64,000 nt of DNA from Podarcis gaigeae (Eukaryota). Position numbers and translations under genes: made by a program. The notes under the pieces were generated by a model, which worked only from the letters and a program-made list of their open reading frames with translations, was not told where the DNA came from and searched no databases. This document shows positions 730-56,719 of this stretch, in pieces; within the stretch, counting starts at the first letter, position 1; each line of letters opens with the position of its first letter. The DNA lies in the NCBI GenBank assembly GCA_964106915.2, contig OZ066915.1; one strand, 5' to 3'.

Positions 730-1207
730 TAAACACAGTTTCTTTAATGTAAATATACTGAGTGATCTAGCATCAGTCTTACTCATTGTAGACCCATTGA
801 GAGCAATGGACTTCATTTCAGTGGGTATTTTCTAAGTATGAGTAGCACTGGATATTACCCATAGTTCATTTTGAAAATTGAATTACATTTTACTTTTTTT
901 AAAATGGGATAAGTGGGTTGTTCTCAATATAGCTCTTACATTAATGTTCCATCAGCACAAAGATTTTTGCTTGCACAATGTAACATTCCTTCCCTCTCCT
1001 TCCCTGCATGCCTCCTAAATCTGTTCCAGGAATCCCACAACCCCCTGGAGCTGATCTGGAGTGGGCATGGGGTGCAGAGAGCAGGGAAATCCCATGGCAT
1101 AAGCAAAAAATATTGTGCTGATGGGATTGGTTAGTTGAATGCCACCCTATGTTTATTTTAAAAAAATATTACATGCAACTTTCCCAACATTTTTCCAAAA
1201 CAGCTTA

Positions 1208-1433
1208 CAGTGGTACCTCAGGTTACATACGCTTCAGGTTACAGACTCCGCTAACCCAGAAATAGTGCTTTAGGTTAAGAACTTTGCTTCAGGATGAGAC
1301 CAGAAATCATGCTCCGGCGGCACGGCAGCAGCGGGAAGCCCCATTAGCTAAAGTGGTGCTTCAGGTTAAGAACAGTTTCAGGTTAAGTACGGACCTCCGA
1401 AATGAATTAAGTACTTAACCTGAGGTACCACTG
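1208..1433 (+). mobile_element. Tigger/pogo-like (Tc1/mariner superfamily) MITE, family A
   Basis: TIRs CAGTGGTACCTCAGGTTA...TAACCTGAGGTACCACTG, TA on both sides; near-identical copies at 2561, 4426 and 34209. Confidence 0.9.
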
Positions 1434-2560
1434 TACTTGACACACAGGGAGAGAAATGCAGTTGTACCTGTGTGGAAATAATATATATTTTTGGTAGTGG
1501 ACAGAAATTGTTTTTCAAATATCCTTATTGTTTAGTGTTCTGTAGCTTCTTGAGAATGCAGTGTTTGCCTCTTTAAGGCAAAGTGTCAGAAAAGGCAAGC
1601 ATTTTGCTAGGACTTATTTAAGCTCATTATTTGTTTCACAGTGGTCTGAGAGGGTGCCAGATATTATGCAGCACATATGAAATGAAATATTTGGTTTCTC
1701 TCTCTTAAGAGCTAAGAGCACTTTTGTTTCCTAATTGTTCTGGGATTCCAAAACCCCTTTCCAGTTTAATTCATGCCAAAATTTATAATTCCTGAAAGTA
1801 GCTGGGGGAATTTTTCACATGTGCCCTTTACCTTAATCAGAAAATGTGTTGTGTGAGATTTTTGTAGTTTTATTTCTTTTAAAAAAAACACTGCATCGGT
1901 GAAATTGTGCAAATGATATGTATCTCCATCTCCATTATTTTGGGTTTTGTATTGCTTTGTTTTAGGGGAGGGAAGAAAAGGCTTTGTTTGGTGGGCTAGG
2001 CTTTTATAAAATCTTACTTTGAAACAACTTCTGTAACCATCCTTAATTAAGGATCACCTTGTCAGTCCATTGGAAAGTCTTGAATAGGGATGGAATTTTC
2101 TGAAAATCTCAATGTCAAGCAGATTCACACTGATTTATTTATTTTTTAATTCTTTAAATAGGGAAATGGGCATGCTGTAGGCCAAAATTCTAAATGCATT
2201 TGTAGATTGCCCAGTATTATTCATATTGATTCTAATGGAAGGGTAAAACAGAATGGCCAAGAATGTATTAGCAACAAAAGCAAGTCTTTGAAAGAGATGC
2301 ATTCTAGTTGCCTTAAGGTGTTTGGGAGTTCAACTTCTTTCTCCCTGACTATTGGCCCTACTGGCAAGGGCTGATGGAAGTTGGAATCTGGATGCCTTAT
2401 GGGGACAACTGCCTGGTTTTTGGTATGCAGTGGTGGTGTTTTAAGCCAGCAAAAAAAAAAAAAAGCCTCCAAGAAACAAAGTACTATCAAAAAACTTTAA
2501 CAAACTTGTTGCTTATGCTTTTGTGGCAGCAAGAATATGTTTACACTTTGTAATGGTGTA

Positions 2561-3125: not shown

Positions 3126-4425
3126 TGGACTTCTTTGGTTCCTGGTGATGGTGGTTGTAAGCGACCACTTAGTGATAGCAGCTGGGAAATACAGTGTGCC
3201 CATGCACCCCTCCATGGGACATAATGTTCAAATCACACTGTTATGAAATGCCCCTGGTCAAATTATTGCAGACTGGAAGAGTTAAAACAGAGCACTTTGA
3301 TTTTAAATATTAACATTTCTCCCATCCCGAAGGTTCTTCTGAAATTCTAAGATCCCTTGCTATTTTTTCTGCATTTTTGTTTTTGAAATCTTCATTAACG
3401 TTAGTATAAAAATAGCAATAAAAAGAAAACAGTTTGTATTTTTTAAAATGTATGAAGTCCAGGAAGGTTGTGAAGCTGTGTTGTATATTCAGTAGATTGC
3501 AATGGCACAAAACAAAACAACAAGGCTTTTTTTCCCCTGGGGTGGGGGGTCTTGGGCCAGTGCCCCTTTAATATTTCAGTTTCTCTGAGTATGCATGATA
3601 CAGATCAGAAAGAAAGAAGAATAGATATTGCATGAAATGGTAATAATATGATCCTTTGATCAAAGTAACATCCTTTTGAAAAGAAAAAGTTTTTAAAGAG
3701 TCCAAAGCCAGCAATATACCAGCTGCTCCCATGACCTTCAAACAGCCTAGTTTCAGTCCAGAAAACAGCACCATTGGCAGGATGCAATAACTAGAAGGGT
3801 GTTTACATTAGAAAAATGGGCTCATAACACAGCAAGTCAGCACTGTGATAATAATTACTTGTCAAATGTTTATCTGGATAGCTACTTCCTTAACAATTGT
3901 AAAACCTTGAAGATAGATGAATAGCCCCATTTGGCCTTGCTTGCTGAGGAGTGCTGATGCTGAAGGATGATGATACCATGCTTGCTAATACTATCGGAAA
4001 TGTTTTAGTTCTTCTACGGGGAGGTCTGGGTGGCAGAGCTTCAATGAGCCGCAGGTGGGAGAAGGATGTGGCTGCTAGTTGACTCTACAAGCTGACATAG
4101 ATGCTTTTATTGTGCTGCATTTTGAAAGATGTAGAGAGCTGGATGTTGTCCTGACAGGAATGAGATGGAATGGTATCCCGTGGGGCTGGATGTGCTGATT
4201 GACAGCAGTAGGGAGGAAACGATCACCCTTCCTCAAAGAATGCCCAAAGCAGTGCTTAATTCAAAGCATATATAAATTTAATAAATAAATAAACATAAAT
4301 AAAAAAGCATAGCAATTTGGTTCTATTTGCACAACCCTGTTAATTTTTTCTTACTTACACTTTGGAAGAACCAAAAGCCTTTTTTTCATAATCTAAACTT
4401 AGCATAGTTCTGTTGGACTGAATTA

Positions 4426-4667
4426 CAGTGGTACCTCAGGTTACATATGCTTCAGGTTACAGACGCTTCAGGTTACAGACTCCTCTAACCCAGAAATAGT
4501 ACCTCGGGTTAAGAACTTTGCTTCAGGATGAGAACAGAAATTGTGCTCCTGCGGCACAACGGCAGCGGGAGGCCCCATTAGCTAAAGTGGTGCTTCAGGT
4601 TAAGAACAATTTCAGGTTAAGAATGGACCTCTGGAACAAATTAAGTACTTAACCCAAGGTACCACTG
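4426..4667 (+). mobile_element. Tigger/pogo-like MITE, family A
   Basis: TA|CAGTGGTACCTCAGG...CCAAGGTACCACTG|TA; one extra GCTTCAGGTTACAGAC subterminal repeat. Confidence 0.9.
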
Positions 4668-6546
4668 TATATCTAGATTTTAAACATGTGCTTTAGCAGC
4701 TGTGCCTGATGCTCTATCACCTATGAAGTAGGAAGCATGAGTAAAGTCCAGTTTAGAAGTGTCTTCTCTAAGTAATCATTATGTGGGCTTCTGATGGCTC
4801 AGCTCTCCAAGTGGAGGAGCTCAGAATCTGAAAAGGTTCTGCACCCATGCCTTAGGTCCTTAGGGATACACTAGACAAGGGCACAACTCTCTTCCTTCCC
4901 TCACTTCAGAAGTCATCTAAAATGCATTTTTTTCCTGCTGTTCTTCAGTCCTACAAGTCCCATAGCTGCGTCTGGCCTTTACATAACCTTACCTGTTGAG
5001 AGAATGCCTGTGTTAAATACTGTTATAGTCCTATTAGACAAACAGGTGTGATTTCACTGCTATTTAGGAGCTTTCAGTAGAAGTGGATTTGGACCATATA
5101 TTGAGGCACAAACAGAACAACCAGAGCGATAATCAGGGGTCTTCTCTTGTCAAGGCTGTTCTCAGTCATTGTGTATACTCAACAGCAAACCAACAGGCCT
5201 GCAGTTTATTATTTCAGATGCTTCTGGGAGAAAACCAAGGGAGTAAAAGCAATCACTTGCCTCAAAGCGTGTAAAATGGCAAAATCATTAATTTCATTCA
5301 AATCACAGAAATACCATTCAAATCTTCTATGCTGATGGTGAAACAGCAAGACAAATCCTCCCATTTTTTGTTATTATTCTTTGCAAATGTATTTAATCCA
5401 GGTGGGAAATGACTAATTTGTGCCTTTCACTTTACGGTGTTAAATGAAGGGTTTATGTTTCATTCAAAATCATGCTTTATTGCTCACAAACAGAATACAG
5501 GTGGAGATTATTTTTTCCTCATGAAATGATATCTGTGCAGAGGGCTCTTACAGCAGCTGTGGATCTATGCTGCATTTATGGTATTTAAAAATTTAGAATA
5601 CTATTAGAATGTGCCTTACCCCCACTGCATCGATAAATGTGCAGAACAGTGATGTAAGACGAGAACATAGCTTTGACATTTATCCTAGCAAACTCAGAAT
5701 CTATCATTTCCTCTGTGGAAATCGCAAGAAACCTCTTACACAAGGTAAAGGCAAAAACAGGCCAGGGACTAGTGGTTCTCCTGTTATAATAATACGTTCC
5801 TTTCCAGGAGAGAAGAACACTGTGTGCACAAGGAGCAGACACTTTAAAAAAAAAACAAAAAACTTTGCTGTTTGTTTAACTATGAATCATTTCACTGGCA
5901 GTGAAATATTTGAATTCTACTTTGACTCTCAAAATATTTTAGTAGAAGTAAATATTTAGTGGCAGCTTTGCTCAATTTTTATTTATTTTTTTACAATTCT
6001 CTCATTTGCTTTTATACACAAAGGGTGCCATCCTGTCTACACTTGCATGGGAGTAAGACCCACTGAACTCAATAGGACTTACTTCTGAGAAGACATTTAT
6101 TTTGTTTTTTTATCAAACCCTGCCCTTTGTTGTAACCTGCCCTGGGGTCTACAAACAAAGAACACAAAATTATTAAATATTAAAAGGAGTTGAAATAAAC
6201 GTTCCTTGACCAGCAGTCTGTGGCCCAGGCATGTACTATATCAAAAGCATGTCAAAAGAACCACCTTTTCAGTTTCTATCTAAAGCTAAGCCGGGTTTGT
6301 GCCAACCAAATGTCCCTGGCAGATGTGTTCCATAACTGGGGTGCTATAACTGGGTCCTAAGCCATGTAATACAGCATTTTATAGACTAAAAGTAGTGTTA
6401 TGCCACAAATTTTTTTGCTCTGCTTTGTGCTTTTCCTCAATCGAATGAGACAAGGAATTGCATTCGAATTGATAATTCTATGGATATATATATATATATA
6501 TGCAGGTTTTGGTGTCCTCGGGTGTCTTCCCGTGTAAAAGTTGGGG

Positions 6547-6596
6547 TGTCTAGGCGACGTTTCGACGAGGTCTCACTCGTCATCTTCAGGCTGGTG
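6547..6596 (-). ncRNA. minimal type I hammerhead ribozyme motif (left arm of palindrome)
   Basis: Exact reverse complement of the motif at 6891-6940. Confidence 0.7.
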
Positions 6597-6890
6597 CTTT
6601 CGGCTTCTTGTTACTGGAACAGAGCGGGATCTCAATGTTTGAGTTCCTATAAATACTGTAGAGGGGGTGTGGTGTCTAGCCTCCAATGTTCTGGGCAGAG
6701 AGGAAGTTCCCAGGCTAGTGTGCCTTTTCTTCTTTTGTTAATTAAGGAACAAAAGAAGAAAAGGCACACTAGCCTGGGAACTTCCTCTCTGCCCAGAACA
6801 TTGGAGGCTAGACACCACACCCCCTCTACAGTATTTATAGGAACTCAAACATTGAGATCCCGCTCTGTTCCAGTAACAAGAAGCCGAAAG

Positions 6891-6940
6891 CACCAGCCTG
6901 AAGATGACGAGTGAGACCTCGTCGAAACGTCGCCTAGACA
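6891..6940 (+). ncRNA. minimal type I hammerhead ribozyme motif (right arm of palindrome)
   Basis: CTGAAGA (6898-6904), extra T, stem II GACGAG/CTCGTC with TGAGAC loop, GAAA (6924-6927), CG, TC; predicted cleavage after C6931. Stem III is the palindrome ACGT. Stem I is weak (2 clear bp). Confidence 0.7.
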
Positions 6941-7017
6941 CCCCAACTTTTACACGGGAAGACACCCGAGGACACCAAAACCTGCATTCCTGTACCCGTG
7001 AAAATCTACGAAAGCAA

Positions 7018-7018
<1 letters not shown>

Positions 7019-7079
<61 letters not shown>

Positions 7080-7101
7080 ATATACACACACACATATACA
7101 C
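7019..7101. repeat. compound (TA)n(CA)n microsatellite
   Basis: Seen directly; continues the (AT)n at 6484-6500 on the other side of the PLE. Confidence 0.95.
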
Positions 7102-12525: not shown

Positions 12526-13076
12526 CCGTATTTTTCGCTCTATAGGACGCACTTTTCCTCCTCCAAAAATTAAGGGAAAATGTATGTGCGTCTTACAGGC
12601 TCAGCAGTGAATAGTGAAGGAAATGCGAATGCAGGCTCCTTGGCTTCAGCGATAGCAATGCGAAGCCTCCGAAGCACAGAGGGAGCGCTCCCTCCACGCT
12701 CCGGAGGCTTCGCGTTGCTTTCGCTGAAGCCTGGAGAATCGTTCTCCAGGCTTCAGGGATAGACTCTCCTGGCTTCAGCAAAAGGAACCTGAAGCCTCCG
12801 GAGCGCAGCGGGAGGTCCCGCGGTGCTCCGAAGGCTTTGGGTTGCTTTCGCTGAAGCCAGGAGTGCAAGACTCTCCTGGCTTCAGCAGAGAGGGAGAGCT
12901 GTGCAGCGCCCCTTCAGCGAAGTGGGAGGAGAAATTGGAAGGGGCTCCGTTTCTCCTGCCGCTTCGCTGAAGGGGCGCTAGGCAGAGAAGGGGAGATTTT
13001 TTTTCCTCTTGTTCTCCCCCCTATAAAACAAGGTGCATCCTATGGTTGGGTACGTCCTATAGAGCGAAAAATACGG
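12526..13076. mobile_element. Tc2/pogo-like MITE (551 bp) with multi-hairpin GC-rich interior
   Basis: TIRs CCGTATTTTTCGCTCTATAGGACG...CGTCCTATAGAGCGAAAAATACGG; TA at 12524-12525 and 13077-13078. Confidence 0.9.
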
Positions 13077-15640: not shown

Positions 15641-16552
15641 AAGCTTGCTTTCCTCTCACCACCTCTCCCCCCATTTTGTGAAGTATTAGAATCTGAACCT
15701 GGGCAAGAACTGTCTCAACTTTTAATACTTACAAAATTTAAGAAACTTTGGACAAAATTGCTAAACCTTTTTTTAAAGAAAAAAAACCCTACTGCTACTA
15801 CTTATTACTATTTTGCTAAATAATTATTCATAATAGGTTGTATCCATTGTTAGTTCTATGCAGAGTAGACCCATTTCAATTAATGGGCATGACTAATCTC
15901 AGCCAATGAATTTCAATGGATATACACTGCATAGGACTTACCAGTAGTTGGAGTCATCATGCCAAATAGAAAATCAAGTTGCTATAGTTATATCCATTGT
16001 ACAATGAAACTGGCAGCTTTAGCTTTAGGTGTGACCTTAGCCTTGTGCAGATTACATATTCAGAGACAAAGAAAGTGTGCCCTTTGGCCTGCCCTCCAAC
16101 CTTCACATATTAATTCACCCTTGTGACCAACTCAGTACAGCATGCAGACTCAGAAGGCTACATAAACACAGGGAACTGGGATGAATAGTACTGGTGGCAC
16201 AACCCTGACCCTTCCTTTAGTTGTTTTCTCTGGATGTGTTGTCTGCCCAAGGCTACTGAACCAATGGCATGTGCTGCTGAAGCAAAACAGTGAAGAAGCT
16301 TCTAGGATCAACAAAAGCCATGGGATGCAGTTCAAGCAGGCTGAAAGGAACCGTGCTTCACACCTGATGGAGTGGCACATACTTATTTAAATCTTTGTTT
16401 TACAGCACCAGTCATGAAAATTCATAGAGGGGAAAAACAATAAAAACAACATTCAGTAAACCAAAACAAATTACATCAATAAATCAGCGAAAGCAACAGT
16501 CCCAGTAAACGGCCAATAAAATAAGCACAACTACCCTGAAAGTACCGGTAAA

Positions 16553-16903
16553 GGTAAAGGTACCCCTGCCCGTACGGGCCAGTCGTGTCCGACTCTAGGG
16601 TTGTGCGCTCATCTCACTTAAGAGGCCGGGGGCCAGCACTGTCCGGAGACACTTCCGGGTCACGTGGCCAGCGTGATGAAGCTGCCCTGGCGAGCCAGCA
16701 CCAGCGCTGCACACGGAAACAGCGTTTACCTTCCCACTATAAAGCGGTACCTATTTATCTACTTGCACTTAGGGGTGCTTTCGAACTGCTAGGTGGGCAG
16801 GAGCTGGGACCGAATGGTGGGAGCTCACCCCGCCGCGGGGATTCGAACCGCCGACCATACGATCGGCGAGTCCTAGGCACTGAGGTTTTACCCACAGCGC
16901 CAC
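16553..16903 (-). mobile_element. Sauria (Squam1) SINE
   Basis: Minus-strand tRNA-like head GGGTGGCGCTGTGGG...GGTTCGAATCCC, (ACCTTT)n tail; TSD CCCTGA[A/C]AGTACCGGTAAA on both sides. Confidence 0.92.
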
Positions 16904-17249
16904 CCCTGACAGTACCGGTAAATAGTGTTAAAAATGAAAGTTCTTCTGAAAAGTGACAGCCTTCAACTGCCAAAAAAAAAAAACTAGCAGGGACAAGACT
17001 AAATGAATCTCTTTTGGAGGATAATTCTAGAGCATTGGGGCTGATCCTTGTAGACTCCCCATAAAATGTTGCTAAGTTGATCCCAGAGAACACAAAACAA
17101 AGAAGAGGTAAGAAAAACATGCTTGCTTCCTAATGAGGTTTTCACAGCCATAACCACTGCAAGCTGACTCTGAATGTTTATATTGTTTTTATCAATCTGC
17201 AATGCCATGGGTACATCCTTGCAATGAGTGTGAAACTAATATGGAGAAG

Positions 17250-17378
17250 TTACAGATAGGTAGCCGTGTTGGTCTGCCATAGTCAAAACAAAAAAAATTC
17301 CTTCCAGTAGCACCTTAAAGACCAACTAAGTTAGTTCTTGGTATGAGCTTTCGTGTGCATGCACACTTCTTCAGATAC
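17250..17378 (-). mobile_element. Penelope-like element pseudo-LTR 3' fragment (different family from 6500-7018)
   Basis: Minus strand: hammerhead core followed by GTTGGTCTTTAAGGTGCTAC...CAGACCAACACGGCTACC, which I recognise as a reptile PLE terminus; flanked by ATA[T/C]GGAGAAG repeats. Confidence 0.8.
17341..17378 (-). ncRNA. minimal type I hammerhead ribozyme motif
   Basis: Minus strand GTAT-CTGAAGA-A-GTGTG-CATG-CACAC-GAAA-GC-TC-ATAC: stem I GTAT/ATAC, stem II 5 bp, palindromic stem III AGCT, intact core. Confidence 0.8.
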
Positions 17379-20300
17379 GGAGAAGAACTTCTTCAGATAT
17401 GGAGAAGGTTTGGGTGGGAGAAACCTAAGTTAAAATCCTCATCTCTGCCAAATTGCATGTTATAGCAGATCTTGAGCTGTAGCCATATATGGCTGGCCAA
17501 TGCCATGTTCTTCACTTTTGCATTTCAGTGTAGGTTTGCTTACTTATACTGTTACTACATCATCTCAACATTAATTTACCAGCCTCTCATTGGCAGTAGC
17601 CAACAAACTGGAGAACTGGGGCAGGGCAATGCATGATGTGACAATGGGAAGACTTGGGGCAAATGTTGGGTTCATTTGTCCCTGTTTGCTGTAATATGCT
17701 CACTGAGATAACTTGGGGCCCAACCCTACATCCCATAGTCATCAAGAAGTAAAAGATGCATCTTAAGTGTTTTAAAAGTGGGTGCGAAGTAAATTGTTTA
17801 GTGTGAGTAATTGCACTTATCAATTGGTATTTCCCTAACTAACCTTTGCTTGTTTCTCCTTACATTCATATAGCCATTATTTCCTCGTATTTTTGGCATG
17901 CTGCTAGCTGGCTTCTTTTTGTTGTTGTTTGCTTTGGGATTGCAAAAAAGCCTAAGATTCAACAGCACAGGCTTTTCTCACATGCTTTCTTCCCAGATCC
18001 ATTAACCACTCCCCCAGCACAGTTTGACAAACAGTAATAGGAAATCCAGCTGTGCAGGTGGGAAAGGAGGAAAGACAAAAGAACTCTGGGGAAATGGACA
18101 GGAGAAGACATAGTTGTTGAGTCTCTCCCTTAATCAATAAATGTAAAGATATAGCAACAATTTCCAGGTTGTAACTGACAACCCTAGTTACACTTTCTGA
18201 ACTACAGCTAATTAGGTCTTGGTCCAATAAATCATTTTAAAACATACATTTTTGCACAATGTGTCTCTCTGTTTCATGTCCACATAGTAAATTATTATAG
18301 GTATGAAAATGTTACAGGCATTAACATTGAAAGACCTGTTTTCCAGCAATCCTACATGAATTCTATTTACTACCAAGAACAGCCATAACTTGAACACTAT
18401 CTCTTTAGAGAGACGTACAGCAAGAACCCTTCTATGGGTGTTTAAAATCTAGTCTTTTTAAACCTGTGAGATAATATGAATGCTGCATAGGTGATAACAT
18501 CCGCAGGCAGGCAGAAATAAGATAATAAAAAATATTTTTTTCTGTCTGGGTTCTGAATGCTGGCAGGTCATACTTTTGACTCAAAGCACATACGCTTCTG
18601 GAACTGAGCAAGACAGAGAGATAAAGTTAAAACGAACACACATCTCTGTCAAGCTGAAAAGACAAAATGTTCATAATAGAAGCCACTCTAAAGCTATTTT
18701 GTTTCTGACGTATTAGTGGAAAAGGCATTAATACAATGCCTTTTCCACTTAAAAGATTTGCAATGTATTTTTTTTCCTTTTTAAAACCCTGTTATTAATA
18801 AATTGAAGTTGCTTATCAGACCATTTCTAACAGCTAGAAGAAAGTGAAATCTTGAGAAAAGCCAGTTTAGCTGATAACCATATTTTATACTTTATTTTAA
18901 ATCTGAAGGTTTTTAGGGTTGAGAGCTGTTTTTCTGCCACCAAGTACTAAGTATAGATTTGGTGGTGGTGGTGGTTTTTTACCTTTTCACTTCAAAATGA
19001 TCTGATTTGTATATTGAATATTATATGAACTTGTGCAAGAGGGTTGTGCAGTATTTCTGCTGAGAAGTTCTGGGTGAAATGACTGGTGGGTTGAGTGTGG
19101 CAATTAATACCTCACATTTGCGTTTGCTATATCTTAACATAACCTAAGCCCAACTTATGTTGTCTGTTGGTCTTTTGGTCTAAAAGCCCAATAGGGAATG
19201 CAATCCAGGCTGTTAGAGTATTTGGCAGGCTTCTATGTGATACAAAAGTTAAAACAACGATATATTTGTAGATGATCAATTCAGACTCACATCATAAAAC
19301 TAGCACCTGCTATGCAAATTGTTCCCCTTGGGAAGTTGGCGCTCTTATTTTTCCTCTTCCATAGCCAGTCCCCATTCAGCAACATTTCCCTCGCAGTTTC
19401 AACTATAGAGCATGCCATAATAATATCCATCCTTGATTATTCTTTGGCATCTACGGAGCCGCATTAGCAATCACATTGATGGATTAAGTGGAACACATGA
19501 ATGAAGAAGCAGACAATATTAACTAATTGCAGTTGTTGAGTAGATGGGAAAGAGATGGATGTGGCGTGGTAGGACTCAATCGATCATCAGCTTGAAGGAA
19601 CAAGTAGAAGGTTATGACCCCTCATAGTTGGACTTTTTGAAACAAAAGCAATGTTGAACAGCTCAGGGACTAAATGCATCTTTCAACTGGTTTCTAGTTT
19701 TAGGGCTCTTCCAGACAAGTTGCTCATTGAGCAATCATTCTGCTTTGGTTGCTTAGAGGCAATATGACATTGCTGTCATCCCACACTTTCCTGTTCATTT
19801 TCTGTCACTTTTCTTACCACAGAAATGTTGTTGTATGCAAGAGGGCCAGATTTGCTTTAATTGCACAACTGAAATTTGCTGGCAGAGTACTGAATATCAT
19901 CTACAAAATAGTATAGTCCGAAAGTAGCCTTAGACTATGTTTGGAAGTTAGCACTTTCACAGCATGCATTCAACCAAATAGCAACAAACATGTTGCTTTA
20001 AAAAAAACAAAAACCATGCAAAGCATGACACTGCTCAGTAGCCATCTAACCAGGGCATTTCGTTAGAGTAGAAGATGAGCTTGAATGCCACCTTTTGAAA
20101 AGTTAATTAGCAACTTAATAATCTGCAACCACAGCAACTATTTTTTTAAAAACCAACCCATAAGATGGAGTTGTTGACTTCTTCTAGCAAGATTCTGTAC
20201 AGAAAAACATATGTGCAAGTTACACAAGGGGACTGTGTGTGGGTTGCACATATGGCTTGCAAACTTTTCTCCCCCTTAATGCTCCTGCTCCTGTGATCTC

Positions 20301-21611: not shown

Positions 21612-23715
21612 GCAAGAGAGGAGAGGACACAAACTATTTTTTTGAGATCTTTGGTGCCCCAGCAGTATAGGCTTTGTCTATATTCATCCTCAACAGATTA
21701 TGACTACCTATCCCTGGCTTTTTTTTTGATAGCTCAACTTGCTCCTGGATTCAGCAACAAAGTCAACACCATCTTCTGTCACTTGGGTTAGAAAAAGCAA
21801 CCAGCTACATTAAAGGGGCTTCTAGATCATAACTTGCAAAATTTGTCAAGTCTGACATATTGGGGGTGTTTTTTTCCACCACTGTCCTTTTGTCTAGAAC
21901 CTAAAAGAGATCATTGATTTGCTAGGTATTTAGCAATTTTGAATATCCCTAGGTAACAGAAGAACATTTCCATGTGCTGGTTCAGTTCTTTGCTATCAGC
22001 ATTTAGGGTCAATTTGCCAGGCTGCCCTTGGCACTTGACAGTTTGTCCCTTGCAAAAACAGCTCAATTGAAACAATAGCTCATGTCCTCCTATACTGTAA
22101 CTTTTATAGAAAGATACCAATCTGAGCTAAAGATTTTAGAAGGAATGACTATAGCAGGCACCAAATTGCCAATAGACATTATTTCTATTTATAACTCTTT
22201 CTGATTATTCATGGAGTTTCTTATACTCTCATGTTAAAAGGTGCATGCATGTATTGTCTTGATAACTGTATGTACTGTATTTGATGTTATGATTTGTAGA
22301 CCAGATATACTGAAAGCGATCATAGAAAAGCACAACCTAAAACAATATAACATTTAGTAACCTTAATAATACTTAACTAGCAAAACTATGCAAAATATAA
22401 ATGAATCTTTAAAATAGAGTTGGCGTTACCCTTGACAATTATTTAAAAGGCTTCTATCAGGAATGCCAGTCCTATTTTTAAGGAGTTTATATTTAATTTT
22501 TAGATATAAATATAATATTTTTAAACAGACATTTATATGGCACTTTGTTCATTGAATGCCCTTTAAATTTAATTTCATAAATCATGCAGTGGTTGATTTT
22601 TCTTATTTCTCTTGGGCAGGAAGCCAGCTTCAGATCAATGGTTTCAAATCCTGGGTATTGCTAAATTCTGCTTGGCACCAAGACATTGTAGATATGTTTG
22701 TATGCTAAGAAGGGATACAATTTTTTTTAGTTGACTATGATAATTTGATGGACTGTAACATAGCAAATGTACAAAACTACTCAAACAGAGGAATCTTAGT
22801 ATTGTGCAACTGCAACAGATTGGAGGGTGGGCACAATGTCAGTGGACATTGGACTACCAAGTGTCAAATTTTATTTTATCCATGGTGTCATTCACTCCTG
22901 TATGAAAAAGGAGGCCATAGTTCTCATACCATTGGTGATTCAGGGGTAGCAGAGGCTTTCAATATCACAATATAGAATCTAAAATCCAACAAGTTAAAAA
23001 AGACCCTAGATCTGAAACCCCATAATATAACAGTTAAAGTACTGAAGAGAAGAAGTGAGAACATCAATGACACAGTCAAGATAGCCATTCATTTTTGAAG
23101 TTTCAGATATCCAGAGTGGTACATTGCAGGCTTTTCAATAGCTTTAGAAACGTTCATAATCTAAAAATGGGCACATTGCAAAGCACAAGGAAATGTGAAC
23201 ATTGTAGTAGACAAAGTCATAGGAGTGACCTCAGCTGTGCATTGCCCCATTTTAGAATATTTCCTATGAGATTAAAAAATAAAATCAGCTTAACAATATA
23301 TTCCTTAAATAGCAGGCCACTGGAAACAGAAATATAAAATCATAGTATCTAGCTCACTCATCAACTGAATGAGCTTCTTCGTACATACCAACTTTAATAT
23401 TAAGCTAGTTGTCAACATTGGTTATACTGAATGGGGTTTTCTTCTTGTTACTTTTCATTTTAGAAGGATCCCTAAAATAGTTTAAAAGCATATAAAGCTA
23501 CATTGTAAGGCTGTCCTCCTAGCTGAGTATTAGCAGCCCTGACTGGCAACTGCAATCCAGGGTGTCAGGCAAGAGTCTTTTCTCCCCCTACCTGATGATG
23601 CCAGAATTCAAATATGGTGCTTTCTGCATGCATGTGCTCGAATAACATGTTAGGGAGAATGCTAGACAAAAAATGCTTCCACTTAAAATTGTAGCTCTCT
23701 ATGTATAATCTGTTT

Positions 23716-24070
23716 GGGACGCGGGTGGCGCTGTGGGTTAAACCACAGAGCCTAGGACTTGCCAATCAGAAGGTTGGTGGTTCGAATCCCCGTGACGGGG
23801 TGAGCTCCCATTGCTCGGTCCCTGCTCCTGCCAACCTAGCAGTTCAAAAGCATGTCAAAGTGCAAGTAGATAAATAGGTACCGCTCTGGCGGGAAGGTAA
23901 ACGGCATTTCCGTGCGCTGCTCTGGTTCACCAGAAGCGGCTTAGTCATGCTGGCCACATGACCCGGAAGCTGTACGCCGGCTCCCCCGGCCAGTAAAGCT
24001 AGATGAGTGCCGCAGCCCCAGAGTCAGTCACGACTGGACCTAATGGTCAGGGGGTCCCTTTACCTTTACC
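23716..24070 (+). mobile_element. Sauria (Squam1) SINE, full length
   Basis: GGGACGCGGGTGGCGCTGTGGG head, box B GGTTCGAATCCC, CCTTTACCTTTACC tail; TSD CTATG[T/C]ATAATCT. Confidence 0.93.
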
Positions 24071-27530: not shown

Positions 27531-27892
27531 AGGTAAAGGTAAAGGTACCCCTGCCCGTACGGGCCAGTCTTGACAGACTCTGGGGTTGTGCGCCCATCTC
27601 ACTCAAGAGGCCAGGGGCCAGCGCTGTCCGGAGACACTTCCGGGTCACGTGGCCAGCGTGACATCGCTGCTCTGGCGAGCCAGAGCTGCACACGGAAACG
27701 CCGTTTACCTTCCCGCTGGTAAGCGGTCCCTATTTATCTACTTGCACCCGGAGGTGCTTTCGAACTGCTAGGTTGGCAGGCGCTGGGACCGAGCAGCGGG
27801 AGCGCACCCCGCCGCAGGGATTCGAACCGCCGACCTTTCGATCGGCAAGTCCTAGGCGCTGAGGCTTTAACCCACAGCGCCACCTGTGTCCC
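27531..27892 (-). mobile_element. Sauria (Squam1) SINE, full length
   Basis: Perfect 13-bp TSD CACCTTGTACATA (27518-27530, 27893-27905); (AAAGGT)n tail; CpG-rich, so young. Confidence 0.95.
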
Positions 27893-33800: not shown

Positions 33801-34208
33801 AGGGGAATTCCAGTAGTTGCAGCTTTGCTAGCCCCAGGGGTGGATTTAGGGCTGTATGAACAGTGCACACGCACTGGGAACTGTCTCAAAGCCAGATAAG
33901 TGACTCACTGGGCTTTGAGAAGGAGGCGTGAGGCTCTCACAGGGTCCTAGAGTCCTCCTCCTTCCAAAAGCCAAGTTAGTGTTTTCATGCCTTTGGGAAG
34001 GCAGCACAAGGATGGGGGGAGTGCGCCACTGCTTACCCAGCATGGCAGATGCATTTAGTACCTGTAGCAGTTTAGTGTTAGACAACTATTTGTATCTCTT
34101 TCTGCCAAAGTCACAACAGCCAAGTAAAGCTGCTTCTGTTCCTAGACTGTACAAAAACCACACCTATAAAGCAGACCTGAGAAGCAATGAACTGGTAGAA
34201 TGCTCATA

Positions 34209-34447
34209 CAGTGGTACCTCAGGTTACGAACTTAATTCGTTCCGGAGGTCTGTTCTTAACCCAAAACCGTTCTTAACCTGAGGCGCGCTTTCGCTAGTGG
34301 GGCCTCCTGCTGCCGCTGCCGCCGCCGCACAATTTCTATTCTCATCCTCGGGCAAAGTTCTCAACCCAAGGTACTACTTCTGGGTTAGCGGAATTTGTAA
34401 CCTGAAGTGTTTGTAACCCAAAGCATTTGTAACCTGAGGTGCCACTG
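34209..34447 (-). mobile_element. Tigger/pogo-like MITE, family A (inverted relative to 1208 copy)
   Basis: TA|CAGTGGTACCTCAGG...CCTGAGGTGCCACTG|TA; interior is the reverse complement of family A. Confidence 0.9.
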
Positions 34448-37400
34448 TATTTATTAATTATAATAGAAGATCTTCAACCTGATTAGGCAAATTCAGAAAG
34501 CATGGGCAGGTGAGGTTCTGTGGAAATCTGGTAGGTGTCCTGCTCTGGCTCTAAAACACACAAGCAGAAGCTCTTTCTTATAAGGAAGGAAGGAATATTT
34601 ACTCAGGCAGGTAACAGTGCAGCTTAGCAAAGACACATTGCTCAGGAATCATGGTTTAGGAGCTCAGGAGCAGGGCAAGAAGTTCTGAACTGGGAGAAAA
34701 TGACAAAAAAAATCCTGACAAGTTTCCACACTCCATCTGCCAAGCTTTTAATGATGAGTGCTCAGTCACCTTGTGGGAATATCAGGATTGCTAAGATGTA
34801 CACATGCTCATAAACCTCAACCTTTACTGGCTGGAGCAACACAACGGTACGTAAGGGGTGTGACTACATCCACAGAACTTTTCTCAAGTTAGTTGCAACC
34901 CACCACCAGTGTGGATGGGAAAAACCACACTCACTCCCTAATAACAGTGACATGTGACCAAAGGTGCAGCAGTCAGTCAGTTTCAGGTTAAAAACATCAA
35001 AGAGCAACTGTACCACTATAGAAGAAGTACAGAAAGACCTAAGTCTTCCTAAGTCCCTCAATGACACCAAGCTTTTTCCCTAAACATGATGTGCCTGCGT
35101 TTTTATTCTCTCCGCTCAGAACCCCCTATCCAATCACAAGGTTCTTGGAATTCCGATACCTCATGGGACTATAACTAAGGACCAATAAGTTTAAATGGAA
35201 TGGCCACTGAATGATCTATCACACTTTGCCCTTTTTGGTTTCTACTGACCTCTATCAAAATTGAGTTCCATAACTGTTCTAATGGAAAATCTGAAAAGAT
35301 TCAGCCTCCTCTTTAGTAATTGTATCAGCCTAGCTGTTTCTTGCCAAACTGGCAACTGAAGAACCCCTATACAACATATCTCCTTTATTGAGGTAACTTA
35401 TATGCTAACCAGTTTTTATATCATAATATTGTAACATTGACTTTTCTGCTCAACATGTCACAGCATTCCACTTCACTAGGCATAGGGAATAAAATTTTCA
35501 GTTTAATGTTTATTCCTGATGGATCTCCACAATGGGTTTAAGGTGGATCTATTAGATCTAAGAGTCCATGAAAGTAAGCGGAACTTCATTATCTTAAAAT
35601 ATCCCAAATATAAGACCATTTGCCAGTTCAAATGCTTATTGTTTGTAGCAAACCTGCTTTATTTCCTCTTTGCATGCTTAGTATTTGTTTGCTTTAGTAT
35701 GTAATAAAGATTTAAATTGCCCTTTTCTGAGGTCCCAGATGTCGTTCTGATTTTGTTGTTAAGATTGGCGTTAAGGTTGAAATTGCCCAATATTTGAGAT
35801 CAAGCTTGATCAAGGTAGCTGAAACTAAAGAGGAATCTCACTGGGATGATTAAGTCATGCTAGGCTTCCTTCTGTCAACTCTAGTTGCTCCTGTCTTAAT
35901 GTAATAATCTAGTGTATGCTTCACATGTCATCCCCCTTCTCTTCAGCTTTCCTGGGCGGCTGATTCACAAAGATCAAAGACAGAGCACACTATTAATCCA
36001 TTGAAAGATGGTTGAGGAAGTGCTGACACAGACAATAATAAACTATGCATTGTAATGTTTGACACTGTAAACAAACATCACCATCATCAGTGTAGCTGCT
36101 ATAGCTTCCAAATAAATCTTGCAGCATTCCTTCAAACTGTTTTTCACATCTGGATTATCCTGCTTATGTAGCATGATGAGTGTTAATGGCACTCAGTAAC
36201 CCAAATTCTCATTTGAATTGGACCAAATTATTGCTTTTGTTGTAATTGGAGCAGCTCTATCCCCCCTTTAGCATCTCACCAGTTTTTACCAGAAGCATGG
36301 AGAAGACAAGTTATTTTTCAAGTCATCCTGGAGAGAAATGCCAGCCTCCCCCATGGCTACCAAACTGAGACCCAATAAGAGGCAGCTAACAGTGACCCAA
36401 AAGAGGTCCAGCTAGGATGCAAAGACTAACAACAGGAAATGCAGGTCCATCCATTCAATTTGAAAGGTTCTACAGCATTATTGAAAATCATTTCACCATA
36501 TCTATATCTCTAGATCTATCGATCGATCAATCAGTCAATCAATAGAAGATAGATAGATAGATAGATGATACATATAGATCTACTGAAGTAATAAGCAGTA
36601 ATATCCAATAAAACAAAGGGTTACTTGAGGATGGGATACGTTGGAAGAAGAAAAATATTACTGGTGAATGAACCAAACTATAAGCTTCTAAATCCTAATG
36701 TGGTAGTTAAATGGAGAGGATGGGGTAGCCCAGAATTATTAGTGTCCAAAACTTGGCTAAAATGCTTTGTAGCTGTGAGAAGATCTGTAGTTGTGATTTT
36801 AAAAAATATTTTACTTCCATGTTCGAAAGTGCCTCAAACGTATGCACCTGGTCATATTAGAGGGCTATTATGTGAATTCTCGTCATTGCATAGTTTTCAT
36901 TGTTTCCTTTCCACTTCCTTTTCACCTGGCTTTTGAGTAATTGCTAAAATTTGGAAGGATTTTCACCCAAGGAACCAGTAAGATTCAGTGACATTCTTCC
37001 AATGTGCTTCCAGAAATTTAAAGAAGTAGCTCACTTTCTCCCTCAGATACTCAGCTTAGATGTGAAAAATTCGGCAAATCCCACAGCCAATTACAATAAT
37101 GGAACTCTTCCCTATTTCCAGATATATATTTTAAACAAAAACTGATATTTTTGAAAATCAGAAACATTGTTAGAGATGCCTGTGCTTTGTTTGGCATTTA
37201 ATAAGTGTTTCATTTTATATGCTGAAGAGGGTCTCCCTACTCTTACACTCCACATGCAGTCTCTGGCAATGGAATTTCTGTTTCTGTTGTGACTAATGAT
37301 CCAAATAGTAAAAACTGACTGAGTGCAGACTTTCCCAGACATTTAGCATGATCTAGATAAAGAATTCTACATACAGAAGCAGGCTTCTTCTTATGCATCT

Positions 37401-41687: not shown

Positions 41688-41989
41688 CAGAAATAATTGT
41701 GGGGTGTGGGAGGGGAGGGGTGAAAGCCCCATTAGTGGGAGTCCTTGCACTGACTTCCACTAGTAGGGCTCAGTGGTTGAATTCTGCCCTCTGCTTCCAG
41801 TTCTTGAACTAGTTACTAATCTATAAATAATCTATAAATAAATACTAATCAGAAATAATTGTGGGGTGTGGGAGGGGAGGGGTGAAAGCCCCATTAGTGG
41901 GAGTCCTTGCACTGACTTCCACTAGTAGGGCTCAGTGGTTGAATTCTGCCCTCTGCTTCCAGTTCTTGAACTAGTTACTAATCTATAAA
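41688..41989. repeat. perfect 140-bp direct tandem duplication with 22-bp filler
   Basis: 41688-41827 equals 41850-41989. Confidence 0.95.
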
Positions 41990-43818: not shown

Positions 43819-46257
43819 TAAAGTCTTGGCGTGAATTTTGTCTTTTTGTTGTTACAGTCTGCCTCGTTCTGGAATTTCCCCCTAGTTATAGATGTTCCTA
43901 CAGCTGCAGCAACATTCCATGCAAACCAGCTGGAAGAGATAAATCTCAACACACACACTTTGTGACTTGCAAACTCACTATTGCCTTTCTGGGTAACTAC
44001 AGACTCATTTGATTCAGATTCAGCAGGGAGAAGCTGATCCTAGATGCTACTGGTGCAGGAAAAGTGGTCCACACAGCATTGTTACTTTCAGATAACAATC
44101 CATGCTGCTTGGCTGTACTTTCATAGCTTACTTGTAAATAAAAGCTTTACAGATCTTTTTTCTATTTGTAACTAAAGCTGCCCTAACCTCTGAATAGCTG
44201 TTATTCCTCTCTGACAAAGGGGAGCTGCATGCAGGTTGCTTACTCCAGCACTTGATCTCTCTGCCATGGCAGACGTGAACTCAGTATGAGGCCGGTATGA
44301 GGAAGGTCATAAAAGTGTGTTCTTGCTTCTCCACCTGTTTATCTGATGCAAACAAATGTATTTGTAGGAGCAAATTATTCACAGGGTTTGGAGGAATATG
44401 CAGAACAAAGCTCTCTTCCCACAGCAGCAGAACAATTCTCTCTTAAGAATATGTTCTTTAGAGCATCTTTGAGAGCCTAATCCAGGAAAGATGACATGAG
44501 GACTGTAACATACATATGTAGCATGCACATCATCAAGCACTCTTGGGACTAGGTAGAAAAGCACTTAGGCTTGATTAAGCAGAGGAAAGGAATCTGTGCA
44601 TTTGTGAGCCACTTAGCCTTACCTTTTCTTCCTATCAAGATAAAGCTCATTACCTCCACAGCATGCTGCCTCTCCATAGGTTTGGAATGATACTAGATAA
44701 CTCCAGCAGCACAGCCAAGTGTTTTACATCACAAGCAAGTGCTGAAGCGGCATTTTCTGGCTCCTGAAGTTAGCAAATCTAAAAAGAAACACCAATAGGT
44801 CTCCCCAAGGGCACCTACTGCCATTTCACACCAAAAGTAGCAATCTTTAAAAAATCAATAGGGTTTTCTTAAACACTGGAACAAAAATTGAATAGAAATA
44901 TCCTTCAAGTTATTATTAATTTTATCCTTCAGATGTTTTATACTGCTGAACTGGTATTGCTGATGTCTCCTGTAGCCAGATCTCTTTTTTGGGGGGGGGG
45001 CAAGGAATTCAAGTGGGTTTTATAAAAGGGTTCTTAGCCTACATAGCAGCATTAAACTGAACAACGAAGCCAACGTCAACAGATTTTAAGCAAGTCTTCC
45101 TTTAATTTATGGGTACATACTGATCCCTTTGGCGTGATTACTGTTGTAAATTAGATGAAGTGGAGAAAGACAATTTGATGTTGGTAATTCAAGTGTAAGC
45201 TAAGTTTTCCTATTGTCATGTGCACTGTGTGCTTTGCAGTCTTGGGCTGGACATTGGCTGGCTTAGCAACTCATCAGAAGAAGGTAGGATTCCATTCTCA
45301 TTTTTCATTAGTTGGGTAATGGAATGCAATTTGGCACAGCTGGCAGCTTCTGCTAAAGAAACATCCTGTATTAAATGAGAATGGTGTCAAAAGGCCAGAA
45401 AGAACTGCAGTGCTGTAACAGCTCTCTGCAGAGAAACTTGCATGTTGTATTTTTCATATATTAATATTTATTACTGACTTCACATTACTCTAGTACCCAA
45501 ATACTCAGCAAAAAAATCACAGAGAGCTTTTTCCTCTCTTAACATCCCAGGAGCAAAGGGAGCAAAACATATGAGCATCACCAGAATAATTAAGAGGTTA
45601 AAGGGAGGCCCTTTCAAGAGAATGAGGGCATTCCTCCTTTAATTTGATCATTCCTCAGGAACACCTATATTTATTTCCAACTGAATGATTCTGCTTGGTG
45701 AACGAATATTGGTTTAAACAATTAATTGGGTTGGTATGCCAGCTATGCTTACCAAAGCCACAGTTCCAGCAGTAACAGTATCAGGGCTTTAAAAGATAAT
45801 TAGGTTTTTTTAGCTATTGATCCCACCCTGGGCCTGCCAAGCTCTGCCTTTGACTGTCATATACCTCCAGATTTAAACCTGCCTGCAGCTAGGAATGGAT
45901 GAATCTGTCAATCCGGTAAGCCTTGCAGCCATGATGCATTCCCTTATGGCCTGCTCAAATTGTCCTCAAAACCATTGCTCAGATCTGCCCCAGGAGACCA
46001 ACAATGTGCAAAGTTGCAGCAGTTTGCTGTGGAATTGCAAAGCAACAAGGGTGGCAATGAGATAGCATGCCATTTCTATGAGAACACACACACACACACC
46101 CGGTTACGGGATGCTCTCCTCAAGGAAGTTTACCTGGTGCTCGCTCTGTCATTTTTCAGCAGCAGGCAAAAATATTTTTGTTTCCCCAAACATTTGGGCT
46201 GTGTTAATGGTCCAGCTTCTGCCATCAGTTGGGTAAGGGTGGCTATTCTGTGTTTTA

Positions 46258-46615
46258 AAAGGTAAAGGTACCCCTGCCCGTACGGGCCAGTCTTGCCAGA
46301 CTCTAGGGTTGTGTGCTCATCTCACTCTAGAGGCCGGGAGCCAGCGCTGTCTGCAGACACTTCCGGGTCACGTGGCCAGAGTGACAAGCTGCATCTGGCG
46401 AGCCAGCGCAGCACACGGAATGCCGTTTACCTTCCCGCTGGTAAGCGGTCCCTATTTATCTACTTGCACCAGGAGGTGCTTTCAAACTGCTAGGTTGGCA
46501 GGCGCTGGGACCGAACGACGGGAGCGCACCACGCCACAGGGATTCGAACCGCCGACCATGCAATCAGCAAGTCCTAGGCGCTGAGGTTTTACCCACAGCG
46601 CCACCTGCATCCCGA
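46258..46615 (-). mobile_element. Sauria (Squam1) SINE, full length
   Basis: Perfect 13-bp TSD ATTCTGTGTTTTA (46245-46257, 46616-46628); closely similar to 27531-27892. Confidence 0.95.
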
Positions 46616-55552: not shown

Positions 55553-56719
55553 AATTAAGTTCTTAACCCGAGGTACCACTGTAGTTTAGCAAGGATGCAT
55601 GTTGCAGAATACCTTATAAGAGCAATAGACGTCATCAAACTTCTGGGAATCAATAATGTGCATTTCCAAACTCCCCAAATAGCTCTGACTCTTTAATTCT
55701 ATCCTCTGTGTATTCAGACCCATGCAGACCTTAAAAACTGCTTGTCATATGGCAGTGCAGAATTTAAGATGACACCTACAAACAAACACACCAGGCCCTC
55801 CAAAAAACTACACATATACCGCCACCAACCTTGAGCTATGAAAAACAACCTTTTTGAGGCTTTCAGACTGATAAACAAGAAATGTGTAGTTGTCATTTAT
55901 GTGTCAAATTGCCCAAAGAACACAAAGGCATAGAGCGAACTAATGGCATGTCTTGTACAACCTTGACAAAAAGAAGGTTAATGAGAATTCTAAAAATATA
56001 ATGTAAAAAATAATGTGCAATAATCCGAGTAGAGCCTACAGGGAACCAGAATAAGCCATAGTTCAACTTGCTTACAACTTTCATCACCTTTTGGGAAATA
56101 TCCTTCAAATGCCACCGTATATCTTCTTTGAATGTATCATTTGGAAATATTCAGCTGTACCACACTGGAATTCTTCACCACAGAGATAAGAACAACAGCA
56201 GTAAAAATGAAATATTAAAAATGGAGACACTTACAAGATTCCTGGTATCTCCGCAAAATGTGGCTGTATGCACATTTAGTATTGCCGCCACATAGGACCA
56301 ACAAAATGAAATTGTGCAATCTCAGTTAACATGAAACACTCCCTTTTGTTTTTTAATCTGATTCTCATAAACCTGCGTAAAAGTGGTGGCTTGTGCCCAC
56401 TGGAACTGGTAGGTCATAAGGAAGGAGACAAATAGTAGATGGAGTTAGAGTCAATGACAGACAGAACCAAGTAATTTTATCCCCATCTTCCTCCGTGCTG
56501 ATCTCTACAAATGGACTGGATGTAAGTAAGGAAGCAAACAGCAGAGGACTGGCAGCAGTTGGCAAGGCAAAGCCCCATTTGTCCTAATGGACCACCCTCC
56601 ACAGCTACTAATATAGGAAAGAATGATATCACTGTGGTGAAGGGGCAGGATTTAAAAAAACCCAAAGCCAGGAATTGAAGCTGAACCAACAAAGCGTGTT
56701 CTCCTTCATGGAGAGCACG

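What the first reader, a model, noticed from the sequence alone, without database searches (positions are those of the whole stretch)
6547..6940. Two divergently oriented minimal hammerhead ribozyme motifs, one per palindrome arm
Seen: CTGAAGA-T-GACGAG(TGAGAC)CTCGTC-GAAA-CG-TC at 6898-6931 (+) and its mirror at 6556-6589 (-). The catalytic core is intact, there is one extra nucleotide between A9 and stem II, and stem III is reduced to the palindrome ACGT. Established: PLE pLTRs carry minimal type I hammerheads with palindromic stem III that are thought to cleave as dimers. Inference: transcription from either strand yields one ribozyme preceded by its exact antisense. Caveat: stem I shows only about 2 contiguous pairs, so activity is uncertain.
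Basis: partly seen in the sequence, partly recalled or inferred. Interest (0 to 1): 0.75.

Follow-up and report, generated by a model that had tools for sequence, protein, structure and literature searches.

The report
Mirrored Penelope retrotransposon end with hammerhead
This is the stub of a known kind of reptile jumping gene (a Penelope element) that was inserted as a perfect mirror image of itself, so its ordinary built-in self-cutting RNA motif appears twice; RNA from this family is heavily edited by the host, including at the letters the motif needs in order to cut.

Summary
The two motifs are real and exactly placed (6898-6931 +, 6556-6589 -), but they are one motif mirrored. The locus is a 5'-truncated Penelope/Poseidon-type PLE end (6739-7019) plus its perfect 240-nt inverted copy, with a 32-nt tail on one arm only, inserted in (TA)n. 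The arm encodes the C-terminus of an RT + GIY-YIG protein whose stop codon lies in hammerhead loop II. Minimal hammerheads with the extra 9/10.1 base, opposite-strand pairs, inverted copies and one-sided tails are all published PLE features. The ribozyme is probably inactive here: stem I has 2 bp; read-through RNA buries it in a 240-bp hairpin; the two copies cannot dimerise in cis; family RNA shows no ends at the cut site. What the tools added: family RNA reads from a related organism carry strand-specific A>G/T>C changes (65 of 77 variant places), i.e. A-to-I hyper-editing, reaching core A6, A13, A14 and A15.1 in 16-38% of sense reads. Other copies have equally symmetric fold-back centres. 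This would explain why lizard Penelope is a reported hyper-editing outlier. Verdict: new member of a known kind, with a modest, testable twist.

The parts
6484..6501 (.). (AT)9 target microsatellite at the left junction; its last AT overlaps the arm end
   Evidence: sequence
6500..6739 (-). Inverted, tail-less copy of the PLE 3' end; ends at the position equivalent to 6987, a recurrent family end
   Evidence: loose ends behind 6987 into (AT)n in X1 (4 contigs), X7 (10 contigs), X23 (16 reads)
6556..6589 (-). Mirror copy of the minimal hammerhead
6740..6747 (+). 8-nt spacer / hairpin loop; genuine element sequence of the right-hand copy (family sequence continues upstream of 6739/6740)
   Evidence: loose ends before 6739/6740 in all four runs; P0001 aligns through it
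6739..7019 (+). 5'-truncated PLE copy (pLTR-type 3' end with tail)
6738..6914 (+). Last 58 codons of the PLE RT-EN ORF (first codon altered by the junction), ending HQPEDDE with stop TGA 6912-6914 in hammerhead loop II
   Evidence: 98% identity to the C-terminus of P0001/P0152
6896..6933 (+). Minimal type I hammerhead: stem I 2 bp, core 6898-6904, extra U6905, stem II 6 bp, GAAA, ACGT palindrome, predicted cut after C6931
6904..7020 (+). Probable start of the ORF of the next tandem copy (ATG 6904 at A9/extra U/G10.1; 39 open codons), overlapping the upstream ORF's stop
   Evidence: open frame; by analogy to PAc; profile test inconclusive
6988..7019 (+). 32-nt tail, on the right arm only; ends at +116 from ATG 6904 (other copies end at +113)
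   Evidence: loose ends behind 7016/7017 into TA-rich sequence in X7, X23, X21
7018..7100 (.). (AT)10 then (AC)n microsatellite at the right junction; target-site duplication not definable
   Evidence: sequence

Best explanation
A single retrotransposition event of a young, multicopy Penelope/Poseidon-type PLE of a squamate (probably a lacertid lizard; inferred) put a 5'-truncated 3' end into an (AT)n microsatellite together with its inverted copy. The hammerhead is the element's ordinary pLTR ribozyme and appears twice only through that symmetry. SHOWN: anatomy; PLE protein identity; two recurrent 3' ends 29-32 nt apart; other copies with 2-4 nt fold-back loops; strand-specific A>G/T>C changes in family RNA; no RNA ends at the cut site. 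INFERRED: (1) the arm with the tail was primed at the downstream RT start site (+113 to +116) and the tail-less arm ends at the upstream site (+82 to +84); the near-coincident 5' breakpoints mean both arms derive from one template, either by priming of both nicked target strands on the same RNA or by snap-back of the first cDNA (about even odds). (2) In an intact tandem element the motif is a weak, protein-assisted self-cleaver, as shown for PAc. (3) At this locus it is silent: read-through RNA folds into a 240-bp duplex that sequesters it, and ADAR deaminates such duplexes, including core A6, A13, A14 and A15.1, which would disable those molecules even if they unfolded.
For:: perfect 240-nt arms, 8-nt loop, tail on one arm, (AT)n at both ends. 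P0152 (514 aa) has YVDD RT, GIY-YIG, no CX2-5CXXC linker, and ends in the window's 58 codons; 7 of 7 longer relatives scanned (679-841 aa) pass the RVT_1 cut-off (the eighth protein, fragment P0058, has no hit); 20 runs, 12 studies, 9 organism codes hold at least half of the words; 606 contigs laid in X1, 541 at >=99% likeness; ends at 6987 and 7016; 3 of the 6 X1 loose-end rows shown are reverse complements of the adjacent element sequence (verified; loops 2, 2, 4 nt); three partial-tandem joints 7019->(AT)n->6864/6899/6902. Editing: X23 has A>G at 34 and T>C at 31 of 77 variant places, X21 25 and 8 of 48; over 26 listed places A>G is 301 of 1149 in first-mate-minus versus 6 of 532 in first-mate-plus reads, T>C 142 of 388 versus 4 of 699; 25 of 26 places individually asymmetric at p<0.05 (two both-orientation T>C rows, 6825 and 6852, dropped as DNA variants). 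Core sites in sense reads: 6901 12/76, 6925 17/88, 6926 33/87, 6927 32/87. Sense depth 86.8/88.3/85.8 across the cut site, no begin/end pile there. Folding: stem I probability <=0.023 as a monomer, 0 in read-through. Literature: PMC4209133, PMC11167929, PMC8557442, PMC5625713, PMC3681739.
Against: The RNA runs are from organism B, not the window's best-matching organism A; no DNA run of B was laid, and the tool warns that alleles can mimic editing (the orientation split argues against that). Reads cannot be assigned to this locus, and no host exon or transcript was found for the window, so transcription of this copy is unshown. ADAR's usual avoidance of a 5' G (recalled) was not significant (5 of 26 versus 33 of 118, p=0.33). 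Edited duplexes could also come from two separate nearby inverted copies or from sense/antisense pairs. 45 variant rows, 109 loose-end rows and 1848 pieces were hidden, and only about 12% and 6% of the RNA runs were read. This locus's own centre junction was not seen in an independent read. Absence of cut ends is weak evidence with ordinary libraries. The start-codon profile test was not significant (E=8.8).
Confidence: 0.85

Rival explanations
1. The motifs are functional at this locus: a pLTR-internal promoter in each arm fires outward, giving short RNAs without the antisense arm that pair in trans through ACGU and self-cleave as dimers.
For: Core intact; stem II forms with probability about 0.99 in arm-only RNA; a TATA-like TATTTATA lies at 6832-6839 (sequence; untested); dimers of a Schistosoma min-HHR cleave weakly in vitro (PMC4209133).
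Against: Stem I probability <=0.023; the cofolded dimer does not adopt the hammerhead fold and the ACGU duplex is -1.7 kcal/mol; no RNA ends at 6931/6932 in two RNA runs; the PAc ribozyme needs the PLE protein, and insertion needs RNA to +172, while this copy stops at +116 (analogy).
Confidence: 0.08
2. The palindrome is an assembly or library artefact (fold-back chimeric read).
For: Arms 100% identical; the centre junction of this copy was not independently seen.
Against: The symmetry stops exactly at a recurrent family end (6987) followed by (AT)n, the flanks differ, only one arm has the tail; short-read contigs show other fold-back centres; the structure is the published PLE one.
Confidence: 0.04
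3. A host-domesticated hairpin gene (miRNA or regulatory dsRNA) or a MITE/foldback DNA transposon.
For: Rfam miRNA models match 6673-6811 at up to 64 bits.
Against: All those matches are below their gathering scores except none that fits the locus, and follow from any perfect hairpin; the arms are 98% identical to a PLE ORF end; ends are PLE tail sites; no divergence between arms to suggest age or selection.
Confidence: 0.03

Closest known systems
Minimal type I hammerheads of metazoan PLE pLTRs (Cervera & de la Pena 2014, PMC4209133; read parts 1-2 of 4 of the text)
   Same: CUGANGA/GAAA/UH core, extra base between A9 and G10.1, G10.1-C11.1 pair, long stem II, palindromic 15.2-16.2 without loop III; found in reptiles; pairs on opposite strands 100-700 bp apart already noted.
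   Different: Helix I here is 2 bp rather than 4-5 (like the D. virilis variant); that paper does not, in the parts read, describe editing or the ORF overlap.
Poseidon_Ac (PAc) of Anolis carolinensis (Frangieh et al. 2024, PMC11167929; read parts 1-2 of 4, passages, supplements 1-3; figure content of supplement 2 and the .gbk file not visible)
   Same: ATG at the start of stem II with the cut about 25-26 nt downstream; two 3' ends defining a ~30-nt tail, the downstream one at +111-118 (here +113 to +116); AT-rich targets; no RNA ends at the cut site in RNA-seq; tail resembles by eye the RNA in supplement 1 (shared TGAAA and CGA motifs in the same order).
   Different: A different family (different stem II; not aligned by tool). 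Here the RT-EN ORF runs through the whole pLTR to a stop inside loop II; whether PAc does so could not be seen. Fold-back insertions are not discussed in the passages read.
Inverted 5'-truncated PLE copies with one-sided 30-40 bp tail (Craig et al. 2021, PMC8557442; passages)
   Same: Same architecture, and (TA)n target bias.
   Different: Here reduced to two near-equal arms with an 8-nt loop; symmetric breakpoints point to one template.
Hyper-edited lizard Penelope (Porath et al. 2017, PMC5625713; passages and section 7) and siRNAs from inverted Penelope copies in Drosophila (PMC3681739; passages)
   Same: Penelope is the most edited repeat in lizard (>40 K sites); inverted Penelope copies yield dsRNA.
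   Different: In the text seen, Porath et al. invoke self-palindromes for frog Harbinger only and do not link lizard Penelope editing to fold-back insertions or to the ribozyme core; their supplements were not seen.
Non-LTR retrozymes (bioRxiv 10.64898/2026.07.22.740005; part 1 of 5 and passages)
   Same: Type I hammerhead of PLE origin in a non-autonomous unit.
   Different: Retrozymes are head-to-tail tandem repeats with at least two same-strand hammerheads; this is an inverted pair.

Membership tests
PLE minimal type I hammerhead | Core C3-A9 (CUGANGA), G12-A15.1 (GAAA), U16.1-H17 | tested here: met
PLE minimal type I hammerhead | Extra nucleotide between A9 and 10.1; G10.1-C11.1 pair; long helix II | tested here: met
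   U6905; G6906-C6923; 6 bp, pairing probability about 0.99
PLE minimal type I hammerhead | Palindromic 15.2-16.2, no loop III | tested here: met
   ACGT 6927-6930
PLE minimal type I hammerhead | Helix I of 4-5 bp | tested here: not met
   2 contiguous pairs, probability <=0.023; a 2-bp helix I is a published variant (D. virilis); no DNA variant improving it among the rows shown
PLE minimal type I hammerhead | Covariation or preferential conservation across copies | tested here: inconclusive
   Family too young for covariation; P0058 (50% identical) keeps HQPEDDE, 7 of 7 terminal residues; four distant loci had no motif
PLE minimal type I hammerhead | Site-specific self-cleavage | not testable with these tools
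   No RNA ends at 6931/6932 in two RNA runs; needs a bench assay
Rfam hammerhead families | Covariance-model match | tested here: not met
   0 of 39 hits at E<=10 were hammerhead models
EN+ PLE, Penelope/Poseidon clade | Single ORF with RT and C-terminal GIY-YIG endonuclease | tested here: met
   P0152: RVT_1 E 4e-5 (partial, below cut-off) and GIY-YIG E 4e-4 (below cut-off), YVDD present; longer relatives pass RVT_1
EN+ PLE, Penelope/Poseidon clade | No Zn-finger-like CX2-5CXXC linker between RT and EN (present in Neptune/Nematis) | tested here: met
   no match upstream of the GIY motif in P0152 (criterion)
EN+ PLE, Penelope/Poseidon clade | 5' truncation, partial tandems, inverted copy, 30-40 nt tail at one end | tested here: met
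EN+ PLE, Penelope/Poseidon clade | ORF start inside the hammerhead | tested here: inconclusive
   ATG 6904 opens 39 codons; homology search empty; profile score E=8.8
EN+ PLE, Penelope/Poseidon clade | Placement by RT phylogeny | not tested
   no named reference PLE proteins were held
Non-LTR retrozyme | Tandem units with at least two same-strand hammerheads | tested here: not met
   one motif per strand, inverted
ADAR A-to-I hyper-edited repeat | A>G excess specific to the transcribed strand, absent from DNA | tested here: met
   DNA control from other organisms only (X1, X7), family level, not this locus
ADAR A-to-I hyper-edited repeat | Depletion of G 5' of edited A (recalled preference) | tested here: inconclusive
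   5 of 26 versus 33 of 118, p=0.33

The most novel reading that the evidence does not exclude
Fold-back insertions such as this one are the main source of the exceptional A-to-I hyper-editing of lizard Penelope: the element's own insertion mechanism (both arms from one RNA, ending at the two RT start sites) scatters perfect hairpins through the genome, and ADAR editing of them strikes the hammerhead core and the overlapping stop/start region, so PLE mobility feeds a host dsRNA response against itself. In addition, in this lineage the hammerhead doubles as an ORF junction (ATG 6904 overlapping stop 6912), allowing translational coupling in tandem transcripts.
Probability: 0.4. Interest if true: 0.5.

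Novelty: new member of a known kind. Interest (0 to 1): 0.3.

Why it matters
The motif itself is textbook for PLEs. Its value is as a clean specimen: a 520-bp insertion that records both RT start sites seen in vitro for PAc and constrains how inverted PLE copies form, a step that is still unresolved. If family editing comes from such hairpins, it explains a published oddity (Penelope as the dominant hyper-edited repeat in lizard) and gives a rare case of host editing hitting a ribozyme core. It does not reveal a new ribozyme class or a demonstrated function.

Tried and rejected
No assembly is held for this window, so copy number, the empty site and locus-specific transcription could not be examined. 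Rfam: no hammerhead match; miRNA matches rejected as hairpin artefacts below cut-off. No RNA holder listed on record in the run search: not evidence. Exact-core pattern: 0 matches in metagenome and viral contigs; P0152 relatives: none in viral or prokaryote contigs, 4 distant loci (33-38%) in metagenomes, none with a hammerhead by descriptor (0 of 4). N-terminal peptide search: 0 hits among 2 candidates; profile from 4 of 10 long relatives, picked for an E[SN]LR-like motif (circular), ranked the tail frame 16th of 2905 segments, E=8.8. Host gene: 0 of 127 stop-to-stop frames >=75 aa and 0 of 10 exon-like candidates passed a Pfam cut-off (the splice scores were approximate, recalled tables). 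A splice acceptor at AG 6895-6896, which would supply another stem I strand as in D. virilis, scored poorly (-11.7); the 10 X23 reads with foreign sequence before 6895 remain unexplained. The sigma-70 promoter scan does not apply to a vertebrate. Earlier findings: nothing by sequence or words. Literature searches with no paper linking fold-back PLE copies, ADAR and the hammerhead: (open-licence library only; listings seen, only the papers named were opened). Binomial p-values overstate significance because edited places share reads.

Full report
Observation. A descriptor found 3 hits in the window and 0 in 300 shuffles. Rfam's models miss it (0 of 39 hits at E<=10). The two copies sit in a perfect inverted repeat, arms 6500-6739 and 6748-6987, 8-nt loop, so they count as one motif mirrored.

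What the locus is. The right arm continues 32 nt beyond the symmetry (6988-7019) and both ends abut (AT)n. The frame 6738-6911 is 98% identical to the C-terminus of P0001 and of its cluster mate P0152, which carries a YVDD reverse transcriptase, a GIY-YIG nuclease and no CX2-5CXXC linker; 7 of 7 longer relatives scanned pass the RVT_1 cut-off. That is the Penelope/Poseidon layout described in PMC8557442, which also describes inverted 5'-truncated copies, one-sided 30-40 nt tails and (TA)n targets (passages). Named close relatives are squamate (Podarcis muralis 93%; Phrynocephalus 84% over the nuclease); that the window is lacertid is my inference. The family is young and widespread: 20 runs of 12 studies and 9 organism codes hold at least half of its words, and 541 of 606 contigs laid from the best DNA run are >=99% alike (that run may be the window's own sample).

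How it was inserted. Family contigs and reads leave the element into TA-rich sequence at two places, 6987 and 7016-7017, i.e. +84 and +113 to +116 from ATG 6904. For the anole element PAc, reverse transcription starts in vitro at two internal sites that bound the tail, the main one at +111-118, on both nicked target strands (PMC11167929). This copy has one arm ending at each site. Three of the six loose-end rows shown for X1 are reverse complements of the adjacent element sequence, i.e. other fold-back centres with loops of 2, 2 and 4 nt at 6890, 6896 and 6934 (one contig each, 109 rows hidden), and three joints show partial tandems (tail, (AT)n, restart at 6864, 6899 or 6902). Independent truncations would not coincide so closely, so I infer one template for both arms: either two primings on the same RNA or snap-back of the first cDNA. 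The data do not separate the two.

The ribozyme's context. The RT-EN ORF runs through the whole pLTR and ends HQPEDDE-stop, the stop (6912-6914) lying in loop II, 8 nt after an ATG (6904) that opens 39 codons through the tail. P0058, 50% identical overall, ends in the same seven residues, which are encoded by the 5' strand of stem I, the core and the 5' arm of stem II: the only evidence here of preferential conservation. In PAc the ORF likewise starts at stem II with the cut 26 nt downstream; here it is 25 nt after the codon. That ATG 6904 is the true start is by analogy; direct tests were empty or not significant.

Is it active? Probably not at this locus. Stem II folds (probability about 0.99) but stem I does not (<=0.023) in arm-only RNA; in read-through RNA the 240-bp hairpin (-509 kcal/mol) removes both. 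Each strand's transcript has only one sense copy, so no dimer forms in cis. PAc's hammerhead cleaves only with its protein and is dispensable for insertion in vitro. In two RNA runs of a related organism no molecules pile up at 6931/6932 and sense depth is flat across the site (86.8, 88.3, 85.8), as also reported for PAc; ordinary libraries make this weak evidence.

What family RNA shows. In bulk run X23, 65 of 77 variant places are A>G (34) or T>C (31); in single-cell run X21, 33 of 48. Over 26 listed places (28 such rows among the 40 shown, two dropped because they occur in both orientations), A>G stands in 301 of 1149 first-mate-minus read positions against 6 of 532 first-mate-plus, and T>C in 142 of 388 plus against 4 of 699 minus; 25 of 26 places are individually asymmetric. 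DNA contigs of two other organisms show none of these at >=3%. This is the signature of A-to-I editing of both strands. It reaches the catalytic core: A6 12/76, A13 17/88, A14 33/87, A15.1 32/87 of sense reads (16-38%). Against: no DNA of the same organism, no assignment to this locus, no significant 5'-neighbour bias (p=0.33), part of the tables hidden, and no host gene found in the window.

Comparison with what is known. PMC4209133 describes these minimal hammerheads, the extra base, the palindrome, their presence in reptiles, a 2-bp helix I variant, and pairs on opposite strands 100-700 bp apart. PMC5625713 reports lizard Penelope as massively hyper-edited (>40 K sites) without, in the text seen, tying this to fold-back copies or the ribozyme (supplements not seen). 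PMC3681739 reports siRNAs from inverted Penelope copies in flies. Six searches of the open-licence library found no paper joining fold-back PLE copies, ADAR and the hammerhead core. It is not a retrozyme (no same-strand tandem).

Verdict. Observation confirmed; interpretation partly supported; new member of a known kind. Interest 0.3: the ribozyme is ordinary and likely inert here; the editing of its core, the symmetric insertion geometry and the stop/start overlap are small, testable additions.

Noticed in passing
window 17341-17374 (-), remnant about 17250-17407: A second minimal hammerhead of a different PLE family: core, extra A, 5-bp stem II, AGCT palindrome and a 4-bp stem I, preceded by a 21-nt near-duplicate of the core's 5' half 22 nt upstream. 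Better formed than the one under study; its clade (Neptune-like) is recalled, not tested.
   Followed up: partly
P0002 (UniRef A0A670HLY4): A Podarcis muralis TSNAX (translin-associated factor X) protein model ends in about 105 residues of this PLE's C-terminus: exonisation of a copy or a gene-model artefact. TSNAX exons are not in this window.
   Followed up: partly
P0008, P0062, P0058: Besides this family's own three entries, 3 of 152 stored proteins end within a few residues of a PED motif, which the hammerhead's 5' half would encode: ORF read-through into the ribozyme may be common among PLEs.
   Followed up: partly
P0005, P0007: The family's nuclease is 84% identical to an agamid protein and 50% over 257 residues to a firefly (Aquatica leii) protein; possible insect-squamate horizontal history, not tested by a tree.
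   Followed up: no
window 6895 (run X23): 10 RNA reads carry the same foreign sequence directly before 6895, at the 5' strand of stem I: a transcribed copy truncated there or a splice into the motif; the acceptor scores poorly.
   Followed up: partly
window 6832-6839 (+) and mirror 6648-6655: TATTTATA about 60 nt upstream of the ribozyme, reading TATAAATA on the other strand; candidate pLTR promoter element, and 5 of 14 X21 molecules begin at 6831. Untested.
   Followed up: no
window 12641-12863: GC-rich array of alternating direct and inverted copies of a roughly 45-57 nt unit (D12, I12, I14, I15, I17), another potential dsRNA source.
   Followed up: no
window 1195-1438, 2548-2788, 4413-4672, 34206-34452, 55553-55586: Family of short elements with terminal inverted repeats flanked by TA (MITE-like; Tc1/mariner label recalled) (D2, D7, D8, I5-I9).
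   Followed up: no
window 16547-16905, 23713-23962, 27532-27872, 46255-46616, 57601-57824: Dispersed SINE copies, 78-92% alike; the name Sauria SINE is recalled.
   Followed up: no
window 41688-41989: Perfect 140-nt direct repeat, start-to-start 162 nt (D6).
   Followed up: no
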